From Verrucomicrobiota bacterium (GTDB taxonomy: Bacteria > Verrucomicrobiota > Verrucomicrobiia > Limisphaerales > JADLHS01): a stretch of DNA of 64,000 nt. Positions within the stretch are counted from its first letter, which is position 1, and each line of letters opens with the position of its first letter. The notes below the pieces were generated by a model. It did not search any database. It saw only the letters and a list, made by a program, of their open reading frames with translations, and had not been told where the DNA came from. Both the position numbers and the translations under genes were made by a program. The DNA is taken from the NCBI GenBank assembly GCA_029573725.1, contig JAKQDQ010000122.1, forward strand, positions 100,156-164,155, in the 5' to 3' direction. Positions 11,847 through 63,867 of the stretch are shown here, in pieces.

Positions 11847-12464
11847 ACCGGCACGCTGTTTGAGAATCAGCCAGATGGCGGCGGCAAGAAAGAGCAGCGC
11901 GATGAGGCTGATGCCCGAGATGACTATCCCTTTAATCATCCGTGCCCGTGCCAGCAATTGACTTCGCTGCGCCTTCTCCGACTCGACGAACAAGGCGAAC
12001 TCCTTTTCCAGGGAGGCGGCGGTTTCCTCATCTTTCAGTTTCAAAGTCAGCCAGTCTTTGTGTGCGCGATCCCATTGGGAGGGCATTTTTTCCAAATCTT
12101 CAGCCGGGGGCGGACGAAATCCCTGCTGCGACCAGAAGGGGGACTGCTCCTGCGTCCAGAGGCGGAACAGGCCGTGATTGACCGCCAGGTTCTGAAGGCG
12201 ATGCCAGAGCGCCTGGCGTCCGGCATCCGCCAGGCTGAAATCTTCAAAAGTTTCACTGTGAATCCGGGCTTGGCGGGCATGGATTTCCAATGCCGCAGCG
12301 CCGATCACCGTCCCCGCCGCGTCGGTAATCACCTGGAAATCGGTGAGTTGCCGGTCCAGTTCCTCGACCGGCAGGCGCATCAGGGCCCAGAGCTGCCGCA
12401 GCCGCGGCAAATCATCCACCGTCGCGCGGCGCACTTGGAATGCGGCAGGACTCATCGGGCGCAT
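11829..12464 (-). CDS. GNAT-family N-acetyltransferase with a C-terminal coiled-coil and transmembrane tail
   Basis: VRRATVDDLPRLRQLW...GAAALE...WSQQGF shows a GNAT pattern. The C-terminal IVISGISLIALLFLAAAIWLIL is a TM helix. The 3' end overlaps convergent lipA by 18 nt. Confidence 0.6.
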   Translation of the reverse strand: MRPMSPAAFQVRRATVDDLPRLRQLWALMRLPVEELDRQLTDFQVITDAAGTVIGAAALEIHARQARIHSETFEDFSLADAGRQALWHRLQNLAVNHGLFRLWTQEQSPFWSQQGFRPPPAEDLEKMPSQWDRAHKDWLTLKLKDEETAASLEKEFALFVESEKAQRSQLLARARMIKGIVISGISLIALLFLAAAIWLILKQRAGSLPPP

Positions 12465-12538
12465 GGTAAAAATCGCCGCCCGGATTTCCAGCGCGTTTTT
12501 TGCCGGCCCTGCCGGGACGCTGCAGCGCTGCGGCGCCG

Positions 12539-15226
12539 CTACGGCTCAAAAACGCGCACGCGATAGAGCTTGGGAGTGGTGGCGGCCGCCGGATCCGAGA
12601 CAACAATCGTGCGATTGGTGCGGGGGAAAAAAGGACGGTTGTCGGGTTGATTCAATGCGGTCCACGATGCGCTGTCCGCCAGATTGGTGGTGCTTTGGAC
12701 CTCCACCGCGCGATTGGCAACCTGCGGGATCACAATCTGGGCCTGGGCGTTGGTGAGCGAGATGGAAACGCTCCAGCCGCTGGCCGCGTTCGTGGGGTTG
12801 GTGCCCGTGAGATATTCCAGGTAGTTATGCGCCCGATCCCCGTCCACGTCATCCAGCGGGCCGGCGCCGGGGGCATTCGTCGCGCCAAAGTAGTTGAGTT
12901 GCCAGTCGGAATAGCTGACATATCCCGACAGTTCGTTGGTGATCCAGGCGGCAATCAACTCCACTGCTTCGGTGTTGATGACGGACGTGCTCAGCGGCGG
13001 CATGTGTCCCGGGCCAAAGTTTGCCACGCGCTGGAAGAGCGATGAATTGGCCAGGGACCCGGGAGCGACCACGCGACTGTTGGGATTGCCCCAGTTATTG
13101 ATCAACGGTCCATCCACGATGCCGTTCTGTGGTCCCGGAGTGCCGATGCGCGCGTCCCAATAGGATTGGGTGGCGGCGTCCGGCTGATGGCAGAACGCGC
13201 AGTTGGCTTCCAGATAGGAGCGGACGCGGTATTCCAGGCTGACGGCGTCGTTGGTGGCGTGGGCCAGAGCCGGAAGCAGGTAGCGGTTGGTGAGGGGCTG
13301 GCTCAAATAGCCAGCGTCACTCAACGCGACCAGCTGGTTGGTGAGCGTGCCGTCATAATCAAAATCGCGGTTCAATTGCGGGGTGTTGAATCCCAACGCA
13401 AAGCCCGAGGTGGTCGTGTGGCAAACCATGCATTCAACGCGCGCCGGATAATGCCAGACTTGCGTCCGGACCACGCTGCCGTCATTGGCGTAAAGGGTGA
13501 CGGGCTCGTCAAATCCGCCTTCGGCGACCAGCAGCGCATTGGTCGGCGGCACCGTCCAGCGGTAGGTGATTCCGTAGCCACCATTCGTGTTGGCGATCAT
13601 CAGCCGGGTTTCCAGCCGGCGGCGGGAGGCCGCCAGGCCGTTCGTGATTTCCAGTTCAAAATGCTTGATCCAGACGCTGCCGGGGGGGAATTCCCAGTTG
13701 GCATGGCCGTTGAACGTCATGGTCAGGTTGGTGTCCGGAACTGAAAACCATCGGGCTTTCTCCGAGTTGTCCGACCAGAAGGGGGCATTGACATCGTACG
13801 GCACGATGCCGGGCGCGACCGCAAGGGTTGCCAGATCGGCGAACACGCCCGTATCGGAAAGTTTGTCGGGGAGGGGGGCGCCGGTCATTTGCGTGTTGTA
13901 AATGATCCGCTTGATTCGGCTTTGCAGCACGTCGCAATAAAGGATGTCTCCGTTTCGCGGATCAGTGCCGAATGTGGAAATCCGCCCGGGATCGGTGAAG
14001 AGGACCTGGTTTTGGGTGACATTGGTGCCGGTGTGGCGCAAGGCCCAAACCGTGCCGAAACCATAATCCGCATAGATGTAGGCGCCGTAAAGTTGGGAGA
14101 TGTTCAAGCCGCGGTACACGAGGCCGCCAATAATGCAAATGCCGGCGTTGCGCGGGTAGGCCAGCAGGGGGGGGGTGTGTTCAAATCCGGCCGGAGCCAG
14201 ATGCGCCTTCGGGCCGTCGGCAAAACCCTCCCGATAGGCCCAGCCATAATTTTTGCCCGGTTCAACCAAATCCACCTCCTCCCAGCCGACCTGGCCGACG
14301 TCTCCGCAGTAAAGCAGCCCCGTGACTTTGTCGAAGTTCCAGCGCCACGGATTGCGCAAACCCACCGCCCAAAACTCGGTTCGCACCAGGTTCGGGTCCA
14401 CGGCCAATCCATTGAAGGTGGTTGCGCCCACAAAGGGATTGTCCGCCGGCACCAGGTAATTCGTGGTGACGGCATGATGAGGGTTGGGAGGCAAATTACC
14501 CGGCCGCTTGTCCACATCAATCCGCAGCATTCCGGCAAATAGATCTTTCGTGATGGTTTGACTGTTATTGTAGGAATCATCCCCGCCACCTTCGTCGCCC
14601 AACCCAAGATACAAATAGCCGTCGGGACCAAAGTGAATGTCCCCGCCGTTGTGATTTACGGATTGGTCGTACTGCCGAATGATGGGCAGGTAGGAGGTGG
14701 GATCGGCCTGGTTCGGATCCGTGGCCGAGACTTGAAACCGGGCCAGGATGTCGTGCATTCCGTTGGCCCCGCCATCGGCGGAGGTGTTGGCTGGTCCGGT
14801 AAAATACACGTAAAAATATCCGTTGTTGGCAAAATTCGGATGAAAGCAAAGTCCGAGCAGACCGCGTTCATCGTTGAGGTCCGATGAGCCGGTCACCCGG
14901 CTTGTCAGATCGAGAAAAATGGAACGGGTGGGTGCGGCCAGATTGGTGATGACGACGATCGTGCCGCCCTTTTCCAGGATGAACAAACGGTTGGTTTCCC
15001 TGGGCGGCGTGGCGAGGCAAACCGGGTTGTCAAAACTGAGCCCGGGGAAGGCGTTGGTATAGGCGAAACCCAAACTTGGCGGGATTACCGGGACGTTTGT
15101 CAACGTGACATTTGGCACTCGTTCCAAGGGGGCGGCTCCGCTTGGATTCGAGAAACCCAGAAGACCGATTGTGACGGTGCCAAATGCGAGAACGGCCCCA
15201 ACTGAACGACGTGCAAAACCCAGCAT
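12539..15226 (-). CDS. secreted PQQ-dependent sugar dehydrogenase (GSDH beta-propeller) fused to a dihaem cytochrome c-like domain and a C-terminal exoprotein module
   Basis: Signal peptide present. HNGGDIHFGPDGYLYLGLGDEGGGDD is the GSDH motif. The HNE_0200/SO_2930-like region (LSDTGVFADL...PYDVNAPFWSD...) has two CxxCH motifs (CMVCH, CAFCH). DVDGD..N.LEY..GTNP is a Ca-binding-like motif. The tail ends ...KLYRVRVFEP. Confidence 0.7.
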   Translation of the reverse strand: MLGFARRSVGAVLAFGTVTIGLLGFSNPSGAAPLERVPNVTLTNVPVIPPSLGFAYTNAFPGLSFDNPVCLATPPRETNRLFILEKGGTIVVITNLAAPTRSIFLDLTSRVTGSSDLNDERGLLGLCFHPNFANNGYFYVYFTGPANTSADGGANGMHDILARFQVSATDPNQADPTSYLPIIRQYDQSVNHNGGDIHFGPDGYLYLGLGDEGGGDDSYNNSQTITKDLFAGMLRIDVDKRPGNLPPNPHHAVTTNYLVPADNPFVGATTFNGLAVDPNLVRTEFWAVGLRNPWRWNFDKVTGLLYCGDVGQVGWEEVDLVEPGKNYGWAYREGFADGPKAHLAPAGFEHTPPLLAYPRNAGICIIGGLVYRGLNISQLYGAYIYADYGFGTVWALRHTGTNVTQNQVLFTDPGRISTFGTDPRNGDILYCDVLQSRIKRIIYNTQMTGAPLPDKLSDTGVFADLATLAVAPGIVPYDVNAPFWSDNSEKARWFSVPDTNLTMTFNGHANWEFPPGSVWIKHFELEITNGLAASRRRLETRLMIANTNGGYGITYRWTVPPTNALLVAEGGFDEPVTLYANDGSVVRTQVWHYPARVECMVCHTTTSGFALGFNTPQLNRDFDYDGTLTNQLVALSDAGYLSQPLTNRYLLPALAHATNDAVSLEYRVRSYLEANCAFCHQPDAATQSYWDARIGTPGPQNGIVDGPLINNWGNPNSRVVAPGSLANSSLFQRVANFGPGHMPPLSTSVINTEAVELIAAWITNELSGYVSYSDWQLNYFGATNAPGAGPLDDVDGDRAHNYLEYLTGTNPTNAASGWSVSISLTNAQAQIVIPQVANRAVEVQSTTNLADSASWTALNQPDNRPFFPRTNRTIVVSDPAAATTPKLYRVRVFEP

Positions 15227-21300: not shown

Positions 21301-22260
21301 GGATTCTCCCGGGGGAATTGTGATTGTCAGGTGGCGTTTGGGCATGCCGGAGAGTTTTCGGTTGCGCTGGAGGACATCGTGCCGGTGGTGGACTGGACGC
21401 CGCTGTTCCACGCGTGGGAATTGCGCGGGGTATATCCCAAAATTTTCCAGCACGAACGGCACGGCGAGCAGGCGCGGCAACTTTTTGCCGATGCGCAAAG
21501 CCTCCTGGAGAAAATCGTTGCCGGAAAGTTGCTGCGCTTGCGCGCCGTGTATGGGCTGTTTCCCGCCAATTCCGTCGGTGAAAGCGTGGAGATTTACACC
21601 GACGAATCGCGGCAACAGGTGCATGCCACCTTTCACTTCCTGCGCCAGCAGATGGATAAAGGAGATGGAACGCCCAATCGCTGCCTGGCGGATTTTATCG
21701 CGCCCCGCGGGAACGGGCACACGGACAAACTCCTGCCCGATCATATCGGCGCATTTGCAGTCACCTCGGGAATGGGGTTGAAGGAGTTGATTGAAAGTTT
21801 CAAGGCGCAGCAGGATGATTATAATGCCATCATGGCGGAGGCGCTGGCTGACCGCCTGGCCGAAGGCTTTGCGGAGTATCTGCATAGGCGGGTGCGTGCG
21901 GAATGGGGGTTTGGCCGCGACGAGAATCTGACCACCGATGACTTGATCGCCGAGAAATATCGCGGCATCCGTCCGGCTGCGGGTTATCCCGCGTGTCCGG
22001 ATCATCCGGAGAAGGCGACCCTGTGGAAGTTGCTGGACGTGGAGCGGCATACGGGGATCAAGTTGACGGAAAACTTCGCCATGTGGCCGGGCTCCAGTGT
22101 GAGTGGACTTTATTTTGCACATCCCGAGGCCAAGTATTTCGCGGTGGGCAAACTTGGAAAGGATCAGGTCGAAGATCACGCCCGGCGCAAAAACTTTACC
22201 GTTGCCGAGGATGAGCGCTGGCTCAATCCGTGGCTGGGTTATGCCAGCAACGGAGTCTAG
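18367..22260 (+). CDS. metH: cobalamin-dependent methionine synthase
   Basis: All modules are present: Hcy-binding ([11 protein letters not shown]...[11 protein letters not shown]), pterin-binding, the B12 cap and B12-binding domain ([11 protein letters not shown]), and the AdoMet activation domain. The start is uncertain. The track ORF opens at TTG 18319; GTG 18367 gives an N-terminus of canonical length. Confidence 0.93.
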
Positions 22261-43026: not shown

Positions 43027-45963
43027 ATGTCTGAAATTCCGAAGGCCTACGAACCGCAGTCCGTCGAGGACAAATGGTATGACTTCTGGCTGAAGCAGGG
43101 TTGCTTCACCGCCGACCCGGCGCGCGTGACCGACAAGCGCCCGGCGTATTCCATCGTCATCCCGCCGCCGAACGTCACGGGCATGCTCCACATGGGGCAT
43201 GTGCTCAACAACACGATCCAGGACATCCTCGCCCGCAAGGCGCGCATGGATGGCAAGGAGGTGCTCTGGCTGCCGGGCACAGATCACGCCGGCATCGCCA
43301 CGCAGGTGCAGGTCGAGAAGGCGCTCAAGAAGGAGGAAAAGAAATCCAAGCATGACCTCGGACGCGACGAGTTTCTCAAGCGCGTCTGGCAATGGAAGGA
43401 AAAGCACGGGGGCATCATCATCAACCAGCTCAAAAAGCTCGGATGCTCGTGCGATTGGACGCGCGAGCGTTTCACGATGGACGCGGAGTATTCCCGCTGT
43501 GTGCAAAAGGTTTTCGTCGAGCTTTACAAGAAGGGTCTCATTTATCGCGGCAAACGCATGGTGAACTGGTGTCCGGCCACGCAGACCGCGCTGTCCGACG
43601 AGGAAGTGGAGATGAAACCGCAGAAGGGTTTCATGTATCACTTCCGGGTGGAGGCGGTGGACCAGGATGGATCGCCTGTGCAAATCGTGGCGCGGCCCCT
43701 CACCCCTGCGGAAGGGCAGAGGGTGGCTGACAGGCCGGGTGAGGGGAAATCGGGCGGCCCGCAGATTGACGCCGAAGAGCGGACTTGGCTCACCATCGCG
43801 ACGACGCGACCGGAAACCATCCCGGGCGACACGGCGGTGGCGGTGAATCCGAAAGACCCGCGGTACGCGCATCTCATCGGAAAACACATCGTGCGGCCGT
43901 TGCCGGCGGAATTGCCGCGCGAACAGAAGCTCATCCCGATCATCGGCGACGAGCATGTGGATTTTGAATTCGGCACGGGTGTGCTCAAGGTGACGCCGGC
44001 GCATGACAAGGCGGACTTCGAGATCGGTCAGCGGCACAAGTTGCGTGTCGTGGACATCATGAATCCCGACGGCTCGATGAACGAGCTGGCGGGCGCGGAT
44101 TTGAAGGGGTTGGACCGGTTCAAGGCGCGCAAGGTGGCGGAGGAGAAGCTCACGGAACTCGGTGCGCTGGTGGAAACGAAGTCATACGAGAACAACGTGG
44201 GCTTCAGTCAGCGCGCGGATGTGCCGATCGAGCCGCGGTTGAGCGAACAATGGTTTTTGAAGTATCCGGCGGTGGAGGAAGCCAGGGCGTGCGTGGAGCA
44301 GGAGGGGAGCGCCGAGCACCCGCTCGGCTCGGGCGCCGAATCTGGAACTGGCCGAGCGGGTGCTCGGCGCTCCAAGATGCGTTTCCATCCGCAGCGTTGG
44401 GCGAAGGTTTACGATCACTGGCTGACGAACATTCAGGACTGGTGCATCAGCCGTCAGCTTTGGTGGGGACATCGGATTCCGGTGTGGTATCGTGCCAATC
44501 CCGGTCCGTATGATTTGCGGAAAAGCTCGCAGGAAAATTTAGACGCGAACTATACGATTGAAACAGTTTGTCAGATTGAGAAACCAGAGGGTGATGGTTG
44601 GGAACAAGACCCCGACGTGCTCGACACCTGGTTCAGTTCGTGGCTCTGGCCGTTTGCCACGATGGGTTGGCCCGAGCAGACCGACACGTTGAAGAAGTTT
44701 TATCCGACCACCGACCTGGTCACCGGGCCGGACATCATTTTCTTCTGGGTCGCACGCATGATCATGGCGGGCTATGAATACATGGGCGAGCTGCCGTTCA
44801 AGAATGTGTATTTCACCGGCATCATCCGCGACAAGCAGGGGCGCAAGATGTCGAAGACGCTCGGCAATTCGCCCGACCCGCTCGAACTCATCGCCAAATA
44901 CGGCGCGGACGCATTGCGCTTCGGCACAATGCGCAGTGCGCCGCTCGGTCAGGACGTGTTGTTCGACGAGAAGGACGTCGAGCTGGGCCGCAACTTCTGC
45001 AACAAACTGTGGAACGCGTGTCGCTTTAGACAAATGCAGGGAGGCGAAGTGCAGGGCGAGATTGATCCGGCGCTGCTCACCACGGATGACAAGTGGATAT
45101 TGCTCAAGCTGAACCGGGCGATTGAGGAAATCTCGACGGCCTTAAACACCTACAACTTCAGCACGGCGGTGCAGACGTTGTATCGCTTCTTCTGGAACGA
45201 ATATTGTGATTGGTATGTCGAGGCGAGCAAGGCGGTGTTGGGAAGCACGGAACGCGGAGTGCGGAGCGCGGAACAGGAGAGGCGCCGCGCGAATACGCTC
45301 GCGGTGGTTGATTTTGTGCTGTCGCACACCCTGCGGTTGTTTCACCCGTTCCTGCCATTCATCACGGAGGAGCTGTGGCACGGGATGGGTTACGCGGCAG
45401 ACATGCCGGAGGAGCAGGGCGGCCGCACCCTCATGACGGCGCCATGGCCCAAACCGTTTGACGCGGATTTTCACGAGGCGTACGGGCTGGATGAGACGCA
45501 TCTGGAATTTGCCAGCCAGAAATATGAAGTTGTGACACTGGGGCGCAACCTCCGCCGCGTTGGCAACATACAGTCCGGCAAAAAGGTGAAATTCGTGCTT
45601 AAGCCGAGTCGCGAAATCGCCGCCCATGATGGCGAAGTGATCAAACTGCTGCTCAACGCCGAAGCCTTGGATTTTGCAGAAGATTATGTGACGAAGAAGG
45701 GAACGCCGACGGTGCATACGCCATTCGGGGAATTATTCCTGCCGTTGGATGGATTGATTGATGTCGCGGCAGAGAGGGCACGTCTGACGAAGGAAAAGGA
45801 AAAGATTGAAGGGGAGATCGTCAAGGTGGAACAGAAACTGGCCAATCCTAATTTTACGCAGCGGGTACCCGCCGCGGTGTTGCGCGAGCATGAGCAGCGA
45901 TTGACGGATTGGAAGGAAAAATTCGCGCACGTCAGCGGAGCGCTGGACGCATTGGGAACGTAG
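43027..45963 (+). CDS. valS: valine--tRNA ligase
   Basis: 978 aa. HIGH motif PPPNVTGMLHMGH, ATTRPETIPGDTAVAVNP, DWCISRQLWWGHRIP, KMSKS motif (GRKMSKTLGN), and a C-terminal coiled-coil. Confidence 0.97.
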   Translation: MSEIPKAYEPQSVEDKWYDFWLKQGCFTADPARVTDKRPAYSIVIPPPNVTGMLHMGHVLNNTIQDILARKARMDGKEVLWLPGTDHAGIATQVQVEKALKKEEKKSKHDLGRDEFLKRVWQWKEKHGGIIINQLKKLGCSCDWTRERFTMDAEYSRCVQKVFVELYKKGLIYRGKRMVNWCPATQTALSDEEVEMKPQKGFMYHFRVEAVDQDGSPVQIVARPLTPAEGQRVADRPGEGKSGGPQIDAEERTWLTIATTRPETIPGDTAVAVNPKDPRYAHLIGKHIVRPLPAELPREQKLIPIIGDEHVDFEFGTGVLKVTPAHDKADFEIGQRHKLRVVDIMNPDGSMNELAGADLKGLDRFKARKVAEEKLTELGALVETKSYENNVGFSQRADVPIEPRLSEQWFLKYPAVEEARACVEQEGSAEHPLGSGAESGTGRAGARRSKMRFHPQRWAKVYDHWLTNIQDWCISRQLWWGHRIPVWYRANPGPYDLRKSSQENLDANYTIETVCQIEKPEGDGWEQDPDVLDTWFSSWLWPFATMGWPEQTDTLKKFYPTTDLVTGPDIIFFWVARMIMAGYEYMGELPFKNVYFTGIIRDKQGRKMSKTLGNSPDPLELIAKYGADALRFGTMRSAPLGQDVLFDEKDVELGRNFCNKLWNACRFRQMQGGEVQGEIDPALLTTDDKWILLKLNRAIEEISTALNTYNFSTAVQTLYRFFWNEYCDWYVEASKAVLGSTERGVRSAEQERRRANTLAVVDFVLSHTLRLFHPFLPFITEELWHGMGYAADMPEEQGGRTLMTAPWPKPFDADFHEAYGLDETHLEFASQKYEVVTLGRNLRRVGNIQSGKKVKFVLKPSREIAAHDGEVIKLLLNAEALDFAEDYVTKKGTPTVHTPFGELFLPLDGLIDVAAERARLTKEKEKIEGEIVKVEQKLANPNFTQRVPAAVLREHEQRLTDWKEKFAHVSGALDALGT
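44306..44373. repeat. perfect 23-bp inverted repeat (nested palindrome) inside the valS coding sequence
   Basis: GGAGCGCCGAGCACCCGCTCGGC (44306-44328) is the exact reverse complement of GCCGAGCGGGTGCTCGGCGCTCC (44351-44373), with a 22-nt spacer. Each arm also contains GCCGAGC-N4-GCTCGGC. Confidence 0.9.
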
Positions 45964-62937: not shown

Positions 62938-63867
62938 TCAAAAGTTTCCTTCCCAATCACGGCGCACGGCCGGATGCTCCCATGTGGCCCGGATGGCCTC
63001 GGGAGATTTGCCGCGCGCGCCGAGTGCGCGCAAACTCAACGCGTCATGCCGCTTGGCCAGCCGTTGCCCCCGGGCGTCCAACAGCAACGCGCCGTGGAAA
63101 AAGCGCGGCGCGGTCCAGTTGAGTGCCCGATAGAGCAGGAGTTGGCGCGCCGTGGACTTCAACAGGTCGGCCCCGCGCACCACCTCGGTGATTTGCATGG
63201 CGGCATCATCCACCACGCAGGCCAGTTGATACGCCGGCACATCGTCCGGACGCCAAACCACAAAGTCGCCGAAATCCTTTCCGGCGACGAAGGTCTGGAC
63301 GCCCAGGTTGCCGTCCACAAAGCGGATGACCTCGCCGTCGGGCACCCGGAAGCGCACTGCCGGCCGGCGTTGCGCGCCTGCGGGGGACTCCGGGGTCGGG
63401 CCGGGACCGGGCACATCGGACCAGGCGACCTGCCGATTGCGACAAAATCCGGGATACACCGGCTCGTCGTCATCTTCCGGATGTGGCGCCTGCACGGCGG
63501 TGGCGATGTCCTTGCGCGAGCAGGTGCAGGCATAGACGAAACCGCCGGCGCGCAGCCGCGCCAGTGCGGCGCGATATTGTGCCCTCCGTGCGCTTTGTGC
63601 GTAAGGAGCGAACGGACCGCCGCAATCCGGACCTTCGTCCCACGCGCAGCCGAACCAGCGCAGATCGTGGTACATGGCGGCGACGAATTCCGGTTTGCAA
63701 CGGGCCTGGTCCAGATCGTCAAGGCGCAAAATCAGGGTGCCCTGCGCCTGCCGCGCGCGTTCCTGGGCGGTCCAGAACGTGCGCGCATGACCGAGATGCA
63801 AATAGCCGGTGGGTGAGGGGGCGATCCGTCCGCGGTAGGGACCTCGGGGCACGGAAGACGCAGTCAT
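62938..63867 (-). CDS. gluQ: tRNA glutamyl-Q(34) synthetase (GluRS catalytic-domain paralogue)
   Basis: 309 aa. RGRIAPSPTGYLHLGHARTFW (HIGH motif) and ...LRLDDLD... There is no anticodon-binding domain. It ends with the KMSKS-like ...RLAKRHD. Confidence 0.85.
   Translation of the reverse strand: MTASSVPRGPYRGRIAPSPTGYLHLGHARTFWTAQERARQAQGTLILRLDDLDQARCKPEFVAAMYHDLRWFGCAWDEGPDCGGPFAPYAQSARRAQYRAALARLRAGGFVYACTCSRKDIATAVQAPHPEDDDEPVYPGFCRNRQVAWSDVPGPGPTPESPAGAQRRPAVRFRVPDGEVIRFVDGNLGVQTFVAGKDFGDFVVWRPDDVPAYQLACVVDDAAMQITEVVRGADLLKSTARQLLLYRALNWTAPRFFHGALLLDARGQRLAKRHDALSLRALGARGKSPEAIRATWEHPAVRRDWEGNF

What the first reader, a model, noticed from the sequence alone, without database searches (positions are those of the whole stretch)
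44306..44373. Perfect 23-bp nested inverted repeat translated in-frame inside valS, coinciding with a lineage-specific peptide insertion
nt 44306-44328 (GGAGCGCCGAGCACCCGCTCGGC) is the exact reverse complement of nt 44351-44373 (GCCGAGCGGGTGCTCGGCGCTCC). That is 23/23 bp with 19 G:C pairs and a 22-nt spacer. Each arm is itself a small hairpin (GCCGAGC-N4-GCTCGGC). The 68-nt unit can therefore fold as one long stem-loop or as nested hairpins.

I indexed it against the valS frame (codons ...EQEGSAEHPLGSGAESGTGRAGARRSKMRF...), so it is translated. The roughly 23 low-complexity residues it encodes interrupt an otherwise conserved ValRS block (...ACVEQ | KMRFHPQRW...DWCISRQLWWGHRIP). As far as I recall, E. 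coli ValRS has only a couple of residues at this point.

A perfect 23-bp inverted repeat is far beyond chance in 64 kb, and I saw nothing comparable elsewhere in the window. The pattern fits in-frame insertion of a small palindromic (REP/MITE-like) element into an essential gene, as established for Rickettsia palindromic elements. I am not aware of this being described for PVC bacteria. Alternatives are a selected mRNA structure (translational pausing, RNase site) or a fold-back assembly artefact.
Basis: partly seen in the sequence, partly recalled or inferred. Interest (0 to 1): 0.7.

Follow-up and report, generated by a model that had tools for sequence, protein, structure and literature searches.

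The report
In-frame REPIN palindrome inside valS
The perfect 68-base palindrome inside the valyl-tRNA synthetase gene is a real, translated copy of a small selfish hairpin repeat (a REPIN) that is scattered through related Verrucomicrobia genomes, a kind of event already described in this phylum in 2013.

Summary
Positions 44306-44373 are a perfect 23/23 inverted repeat with a 22-nt spacer, read in frame as ValRS residues G427-S449. Four independent metagenome assemblies reproduce it without a single difference.

It is not specific to valS. The 23-nt arm (GGAGCGCCGAGCACC-NN-CTCGGC) belongs to a dispersed family, with at least 120 stretches in species-representative genomes and 100 in metagenomes. 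I recovered 152 complete copies. They have sharp ends, unrelated flanks, non-conserved spacers and no target-site duplication. At least 11 copies lie in frame inside Pfam-verified genes such as CysRS, UvrD and MnmE.

In five relatives a RAYT-type Y1/HUH transposase gene downstream of aconitase is flanked by these repeats or a sister family, forming a REPtron. That RAYT also carries a copy in frame inside itself.

In ValRS the same loop is occupied in 106 of 120 relatives by at least 12 repeat families. The families are scattered almost randomly on the ValRS tree.

Its belief that this is undescribed in PVC bacteria is wrong (Di Nocera et al. 2013, Opitutus terrae).

The parts
43027..45963 (+). 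valS (valine-tRNA ligase) ORF, 978 aa, host gene of the element
   Evidence: ORF list. The 120 closest homologues are all ValRS of Verrucomicrobiota/Limisphaerales-like bacteria. It aligns to T. thermophilus ValRS 1GAX.
44306..44373 (+). Complete REPIN-like element (two inverted REP arms plus spacer), translated in frame as G427-S449
   Evidence: It matches the family consensus built from 152 complete copies. It is one of only 19 of 152 copies with perfectly complementary arms.
44306..44328 (+). Left REP arm: GGAGC tag plus mini-hairpin GCCGAGC-ACCC-GCTCGGC (44311-44328)
   Evidence: Information content is about 1.9 bits per position across the arm and about 0 immediately outside it.
44329..44350 (+). 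Spacer, 22 nt, not conserved across the family
   Evidence: Spacers differ between copies. 19/22 bases are identical to the orthologous copy in L001.
44351..44373 (+). Right REP arm, exact reverse complement of the left arm
43697..43745 (+). Second, decayed in-frame palindromic element in the same gene (site A, CCCTCACCC...GGGTGAGGG family; peptide PLTPAEGQRVADRPGEG)
   Evidence: Sequence. It is a 12-nt-deleted version of the 61-nt element at the same site in L004 and L005. The fold is weak, z = -1.55. Site A is hypervariable in relatives and empty in some.

Best explanation
The palindrome is a resident copy of a REPIN: two inverted REP sequences around a short spacer.

**Shown:**
- The copy belongs to a family with GGAGC-tagged 23-nt arms that is dispersed through Limisphaerales/Pedosphaera-type Verrucomicrobiota.
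- It landed in a surface-loop codon position of valS (between residues 369 and 373 of Thermus ValRS), kept the reading frame, and has been translated since as 23 extra residues.
- The insertion is older than the split from the nearest sampled relative.
- The tag and stem bases of the arms have stayed identical while synonymous sites around them diverged by 25%.

**Shown in relatives only:**
- A RAYT gene (a REP-associated Y1/HUH tyrosine transposase) lies downstream of aconitase, flanked by REPINs of this family, or in L229 of a sister family.

**Inferred:**
- The RAYT recognises the REP hairpin in single-stranded DNA and mobilises the doublet, which leaves no target-site duplication.
- The insert survives in an essential gene because this loop tolerates it.
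- The arms are kept by RAYT-linked homogenisation, by re-insertion, or by hairpin-templated correction, not by any service to ValRS.
- The mRNA hairpin is simply unwound by the ribosome.
For: - Real and translated.
A further 100 stretches in JGI metagenomes carry the exact arm.
- Family structure: 152 unique complete copies with length mode 71 nt, sharp boundaries and unrelated flanks.
- The two arms covary at the variable NN positions: 64 of 152 fully complementary against 27 expected and a maximum of 42 in 2000 shuffles. This fits the doublet being the copied unit.
- No target-site duplication.
- In frame in real genes: CysRS, UvrD, OGG, E2 acyltransferase, MnmE, ABC ATPase, sulfite reductase, CtaA, GH141 (near-cutoff Pfam hits), CstA and BlaR1-M56.
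- A second copy with the identical arm lies outside valS on the same 7-kb contig, L003.
- RAYT: Pfam Y1_Tnp above its cutoff. The best PDB hit is E. coli TnpA-REP 4ER8, with the HUH and Tyr motifs aligned.
- REPtron layout in L075, L087, L228 and L230. In L229 the orthologous RAYT and its REPs have switched together to a sister family.
- The RAYT is syntenic downstream of aconitase in 5 genomes.
- Orthology and arm conservation against L001: 42/42 tag and stem bases identical, against 75.4% identity at 325 four-fold sites.
Against:
- The 64-kb window holds only this one copy and no RAYT.
- No contig of four metagenomes that contain this organism lays on the L087 RAYT at 80% nucleotide identity or more.
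- An earlier unchecked note places a RAYT with a different REP family in this genome. This copy may therefore be a relic whose transposase is gone or diverged.
- No transposition has been observed. RAYT mobilisation of REPINs is itself inferred in the literature.
- The near-random distribution of repeat families at this loop on the ValRS tree is not explained by simple insertion plus vertical descent.
Confidence: 0.85

Rival explanations
1. The hairpin is a selected cis-acting mRNA or DNA structure of valS itself, for example a translational pause for co-translational folding, an RNase site or an attenuator. It would be retained at this position because it benefits ValRS expression.
For: - The loop is occupied by some long hairpin in 106 of 120 relatives.
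- Hairpin-forming ability is kept although the sequences differ.
- The arms are conserved far beyond synonymous sites between W and L001.
- The fold is very stable, -62 kcal/mol.
Against: - The same element family sits in at least 11 unrelated genes and in intergenic DNA.
- 14 of 120 ValRS have no insert, and those are scattered on the tree.
- Arm sequence, not just pairing, is conserved, and it matches a genome-wide consensus tied to a RAYT.
- Other loops of the same gene carry the same families.
- No Rfam family matches.
Confidence: 0.08
2. The site is an actively targeted landing pad. A resident REP hairpin, or the local DNA, attracts new REPINs, so copies are repeatedly replaced or overwritten by whichever family the genome currently mobilises. 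Under this reading the present copy is the latest occupant and not a single old insertion.
For: - At least 12 peptide/DNA families occupy the same few codons.
- The families need 75 changes on the ValRS tree, against about 80 for shuffled labels and a minimum of 12.
- About half of occupied sites carry GGAGC-tagged sister families that share the outer stem.
- RAYT and REP family co-vary.
- Insertion sequences that target REPs are known (cited in PMC3733652).
Against: - Strong purifying selection in an essential enzyme could by itself restrict surviving insertions to a few permissive loops (survivorship).
- W and L001 clearly share one inherited copy.
- Left and right junctions vary by a few codons between families.
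- The FastTree topology is only partly supported: 47 of 116 branches are starred.
Confidence: 0.3
3. Fold-back or chimeric assembly artefact.
For: Perfect palindromes can arise from library fold-backs.
Against: The sequence is identical in one contig each of four runs from four studies, and present in 20 runs of 12 studies. An orthologous copy exists in L001, L002 and L003.
Confidence: 0.01

Closest known systems
REPINs and their RAYT transposases (Bertels & Rainey 2011, PMC3116915, PMC3337134; E. coli TnpA-REP structure 4ER8, PMC3479197)
   Same: - Two inverted REP units, each an imperfect palindrome, separated by a short spacer and forming one long hairpin.
- A dispersed multi-copy family.
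- The doublet behaves as the copied unit.
- A syntenic Y1/HUH transposase gene is flanked by the same repeats.
- No target-site duplication.
   Different: - A large share of copies are inside genes and translated.
- The tag is GGAGC, not GTAG.
- The linked RAYT clade carries a copy of its own REPIN in frame between its HUH and Tyr motifs in all 120 closest homologues.
- The link to a RAYT is shown only in relatives, not in this genome.
Intragenic GTAG/CGTC REPs (Di Nocera, De Gregorio & Rocco 2013, BMC Genomics 14:522, PMC3733652)
   Same: - REP dimers inserted in frame, encoding 20-30 residues.
- The highest count was in the verrucomicrobium Opitutus terrae.
- Hits in repair genes (UvrD) and aminoacyl-tRNA synthetases (IleRS, GlyRS-beta).
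- Multiple inserts per gene.
   Different: - This family is not GTAG- or CGTC-tagged, and 'GGAGC' is absent from that paper and its supplements.
- ValRS is not among their cases.
- That paper did not describe one loop occupied by a dozen families across an order.
Rickettsia palindromic elements (RPE; Ogata et al. 2000, as cited in PMC3733652)
   Same: Palindromic selfish DNA inserted in frame in conserved genes, including essential ones, and translated into surface loops of proteins that remain functional.
   Different: - Unrelated sequence and host.
- As far as I recall, RPE-1 is longer.
- No transposase is linked to RPE-1, whereas here a RAYT is linked.

Membership tests
REPIN (REP doublet) | Two REP units in inverted orientation separated by a short spacer, able to form one long hairpin | tested here: met
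   23-nt arms, 22-nt spacer, dG -62 kcal/mol. The same layout is seen in 152 copies.
REPIN (REP doublet) | Each REP unit is itself a short imperfect palindrome with a conserved non-palindromic tag at one end | tested here: met
   GGAGC tag plus GCCGAGC-N4-GCTCGGC. The conservation profile drops to zero outside the tag.
REPIN (REP doublet) | Many dispersed copies within one genome | tested here: inconclusive
   Met in relatives: at least 14 contigs of MAG JAYVOY01 and at least 9 of JAYVQV01, in a truncated scan.
REPIN (REP doublet) | Cognate RAYT gene flanked by the same REPs (REPtron) | tested here: inconclusive
   Met in relatives L075, L087, L228 and L230, and in L229 with a sister family. 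Not found in the window. No orthologue at 80% nucleotide identity or more in this organism's metagenomes.
REP in the strict sense (repetitive extragenic palindrome) | Extragenic location | tested here: not met
   This copy and at least 11 others lie in frame in Pfam-verified genes. Published exceptions exist (PMC3733652).
GTAG / CGTC REP superfamilies (Di Nocera 2013) | GTAG or CGTC tetranucleotide at one end of the REP | tested here: not met
   The end is GGAG(C): G 99%, G 98%, A 98%, G 88%. Position -1 is only C 50% / T 29%.
DDE-type MITE | Terminal inverted repeats plus a target-site duplication | tested here: not met
   Terminal inverted repeats are present, but no direct flank repeats of 2-8 nt occur beyond chance in 152 copies.
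RAYT (for the linked gene in relatives) | Y1/HUH transposase fold with an HUH motif and a catalytic Tyr motif; a vertically inherited gene | tested here: met
   PF01797 at 25-26 bits against a cutoff of 23. 4ER8 alignment of vmPNHaHvL and WQ..YIeNNPVK. Same locus downstream of aconitase in 5 genomes. Some homologues are named RayT by JGI. Copy number per genome was not tested.
Rickettsia palindromic elements | Sequence membership in an RPE family | not tested
   No RPE sequence was compared. Only the behaviour (in-frame insertion) is shared.

The most novel reading that the evidence does not exclude
The most novel reading combines two ideas.

1. The ValRS loop between the editing domain and the DWCISRQ strand is not merely tolerant. 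It is an actively re-used landing or replacement site where REPINs of at least 12 families succeed one another faster than ValRS itself diverges.

2. The responsible RAYT clade has permanently built its own substrate, a REPIN read as ERRAPxR...EPRRCSALQ, into its coding sequence between the HUH and Tyr motifs. That would make the REPIN an integral, co-evolving part of the enzyme or of its self-regulation.

Together these would describe a third REP lineage, GGAGC-tagged, beside GTAG and CGTC. Its lifestyle would be largely intragenic.
Probability: 0.3. Interest if true: 0.7.

Novelty: new member of a known kind. Interest (0 to 1): 0.42.

Why it matters
For annotation: dozens of low-complexity 'lineage-specific insertions' in Verrucomicrobiota housekeeping proteins (SAEHxLG..RAGARRS, GAPSTxSA..VLGAP, ERRAPxR.. 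and so on) are translated selfish DNA and not adaptive protein features. They inflate protein-length variation; ValRS ranges from 892 to 1211 aa.

For biology: an essential enzyme gene tolerates a -62 kcal/mol hairpin and 23 extra residues. One loop is re-occupied again and again. This offers a natural system for asking three questions:
- whether REPIN insertion is targeted;
- how palindrome arms are kept perfect inside coding DNA;
- what a RAYT does with a copy of its own substrate inside its own gene.

The basic phenomenon is already published, so the finding itself is confirmatory.

Tried and rejected
1. **Copy number from read depth.** I first read the flat depth over the element as evidence against other copies. 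I retracted this.
2. **Frame selection.** A small sample suggested that in-gene copies are enriched for arm-to-arm length of 2 mod 3 (12/14 against 7/22). On 152 copies the bias vanished (20/42 against 17/40, p = 0.66). Dropped.
3. **Crude 'open frame on both sides' test of genic location.** 24/37 copies passed, against a 70% background in these GC-rich loci. It does not discriminate, so I replaced it with Pfam evidence.
4. **AlphaFold2 model of ValRS** with 55 close homologues: mean pLDDT 62.8, and residues 392-651 all below 50. It is uninformative about the loop.
5. **Looking for this organism's RAYT or aconitase-downstream locus by laying metagenome contigs.** No contig lay on the RAYT. Contigs with the right depth fingerprint lay on aconitase but stop about 190 nt before its end.
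6. **Rfam.** Only far-sub-threshold matches to generic miRNA-precursor hairpins.
7. **HUH-motif regex screen near arms.** It gave 11 candidates, of which only 2 were RAYTs.
Full report
**Observation.** Positions 44306-44328 and 44351-44373 are exact reverse complements: 23/23 pairs, 19 of them G:C, with a 22-nt spacer. Each arm contains its own 7-bp hairpin. No other perfect inverted repeat of 16 nt or more exists in the 64-kb window. My own scan for hairpins of 14 pairs or more finds only one other, weak one. The 68 nt fold at -62.1 kcal/mol, z = -9.3. The element lies in valS (43027-45963, +, 978 aa). It starts at the second base of codon G427 and ends with codon S449.

**Not an artefact.** The stretch is present at 98-100% of sampled words in 20 sequencing runs from 12 activated-sludge, wastewater and bioreactor studies. 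In four runs from four studies, one contig each spans 44100-44600 with no difference and no gap.

**What the site looks like in relatives.** The 120 closest ValRS are all Verrucomicrobiota/Limisphaerales-like and range from 892 to 1211 aa.
- Aligned, the position between ACVEQ and KMRFHPQRW is empty in 14 (ACVAEGRMKFHPERW). In 106 it is occupied by 15-70 residues.
- The inserts fall into at least 12 recognisable peptide families.
- The gene has at least four more hypervariable sites. The same peptide families recur at different sites in different genomes. For example, CSGAVSAP..AVTDRRY is at site B in P0024 and at site A in P0033 and P0057.
- DNA of seven relatives shows that every occupied site B is a long hairpin (-52 to -75 kcal/mol). 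The empty site is not a hairpin.
- Against T. thermophilus ValRS 1GAX, the insert replaces about three residues between 369 and 373. This is just after the editing domain and before the DWCISRQLWWGH strand.

**A dispersed family.**
- On the 7-kb contig L003, a second copy with the identical 23-nt arm lies outside valS, at the edge of a Ham1-like gene. L006 has two near-identical copies of another family at sites A and B of valS.
They are overwhelmingly Verrucomicrobiota, Limisphaerales and Pedosphaera MAGs, often with many contigs per MAG.
- The exact arm occurs in 100 further JGI metagenome stretches.
- Pooled, there are 419 arms and 152 unique complete elements, with length mode 71 nt. Conservation is near 2 bits across the arm and about zero directly outside it. 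Spacers are not conserved and flanks are unrelated.
- The two variable 'NN' positions covary between the arms: 64 of 152 are fully complementary, against 27 expected. This is what is expected if the doublet is copied as a unit.
- There are no target-site duplications.

**In frame in real genes.** Of 20 stop-free frames spanning copies, 11 have Pfam domains on both sides of the element or across it. They are CysRS, UvrD, OGG, E2 acyltransferase, MnmE, an ABC ATPase, sulfite reductase, CtaA, a GH141-like protein (near-cutoff hits only), CstA and BlaR1-M56. All three reading phases occur, giving the peptides RSAEHxLG..RAGARRS, GAPSTxSA..AExVLGAP and ERRAPxR...

**The transposase.**
- Two frames next to arms, L075:2912-3712 and L087:1017-1826, hit Pfam Y1_Tnp above its cutoff. 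Their best match among solved structures is E. coli TnpA-REP (4ER8), with the HUH and Tyr motifs aligned.
- In both loci the gene follows aconitase. A complete REPIN of this family precedes it. In L087 a solo REP follows the stop codon. A REPIN sits in frame inside the gene.
- Three more homologues, L228-L230, sit at the same locus. L228 and L230 have upstream, internal and 3' REPINs.
- In L229 all of the REPINs have switched together to the sister family GGAGCGCCGGTCTCC.., which is the 'SADLxxG' type seen at ValRS site B.
- The RAYT clade is large: 3089 hits, some named RayT by JGI.
- All 120 closest members carry the extra 47-56-residue segment with arm-like peptides. E. coli TnpA-REP has about 26 residues there.

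**History of this copy.** The nearest ValRS, L001 (88.7% amino-acid identity), has the same family with 19/22 identical spacer bases, so the insertion predates their split. All 42 tag and stem bases of the arms are identical, whereas four-fold synonymous sites are only 75.4% identical (n = 325). The probability under neutrality is about 7e-6 by my arithmetic. The four differences lie in the NN positions, and one of them is a compensated C-G to G-C swap.

Across the clade, however, family identity at site B needs 75 changes on the ValRS tree. Shuffled labels need about 80 and the minimum possible is 12. Presence/absence needs 13 changes, against 13.5 for shuffled labels. Occupants therefore turn over quickly. 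I cannot tell whether this reflects targeted replacement or repeated survival of insertions in one of a few permissive loops.

**Comparison with what is known.** The architecture and the RAYT link match REPIN-RAYT systems (PMC3116915, PMC3337134). In-frame REP dimers encoding 20-30 residues were described by Di Nocera et al. 2013 (PMC3733652). They found the highest intragenic count in Opitutus terrae, a verrucomicrobium, and cases in IleRS, GlyRS-beta and UvrD. Rickettsia palindromic elements are the classical analogue. This family differs in three ways:
- its tag is GGAGC, not GTAG or CGTC;
- its RAYT carries a copy inside itself;
- one loop is re-used to an unusual degree.

I found none of these three features in the papers searched. 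Earlier notes from this scan describe similar in-frame REPINs in other genes of the phylum. They are leads and were not used as evidence.

**Limits.**
Copy number and a cognate RAYT in this genome are therefore unknown.
- The window has one copy and no RAYT.
- Indirect attempts through metagenome contigs were inconclusive.
- The structure prediction was too poor to use.

**Verdict.** This is a new member of a known kind, of moderate interest. The open question is recurrent site use and the RAYT with an embedded REPIN.

Noticed in passing
L087:1223-1293, L075:3442-3512, L228:3492-3562, L230:3495-3565, L229:3498-3568: The RAYT linked to this REP family carries a REPIN of its own family in frame between its HUH and Tyr motifs (peptide ERRAPxR...EPRRCSALQ). 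All 120 closest homologues have the extra segment. In L229 the internal copy switched family together with the flanking copies.
   Followed up: partly
window 43697-43745: A second in-frame palindromic element in the same valS (site A, CCCTCACCC..GGGTGAGGG family). It is a 12-nt-deleted version of the 61-nt copy at the same site in L004 and L005. A solo GGGTGAGGG arm also lies at 63811.
   Followed up: partly
window about 45238-45273 (ValRS residues 738-749, GSTERGVRSAEQ): A third variable site (E). The query peptide resembles GSAERGVRSAEQ of P0014 and P0043, while many relatives have none or carry GTAG-type inserts (SSSRRESAQT..QSGLTSAAT). The window DNA no longer folds as a hairpin (z = -0.67).
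   Followed up: partly
ValRS residues 488-523 (window about 44489-44595) in relatives P0008, P0011, P0014, P0039, P0046, P0052: Site C holds large inserts of up to about 174 residues that look like real protein domains and not repeats. Several carry a precomputed PF18798 hit. The query has only a short version.
   Followed up: no
L087, L025/L035/L053/L069, L031, L050, L085: Contigs carrying this Verrucomicrobiota repeat are filed under MAGs or isolates labelled Hyphomicrobium, Bifidobacteriaceae, Bifidobacterium, Klebsiella and Arthrobacter (a 240-nt contig at coverage 1). L087 is syntenic with the Limisphaerales locus L075. These are probably mis-binned or contaminant contigs.
   Followed up: no
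L004:631-698, 12393-12468, 14444-14514; L002:4566-4643: GTAG-tagged REPIN families (GTAGC(C/A)GCCGACGTGAG.., GTAGGGCGCGTCACTCC..) co-occur with the GGAGC family in the same genomes. One of them sits in frame at valS site E.
   Followed up: no
window 21468-21541: The only other hairpin of 14 pairs or more in the window (15 pairs, 2 mismatches, 40-nt loop). Not examined.
   Followed up: no
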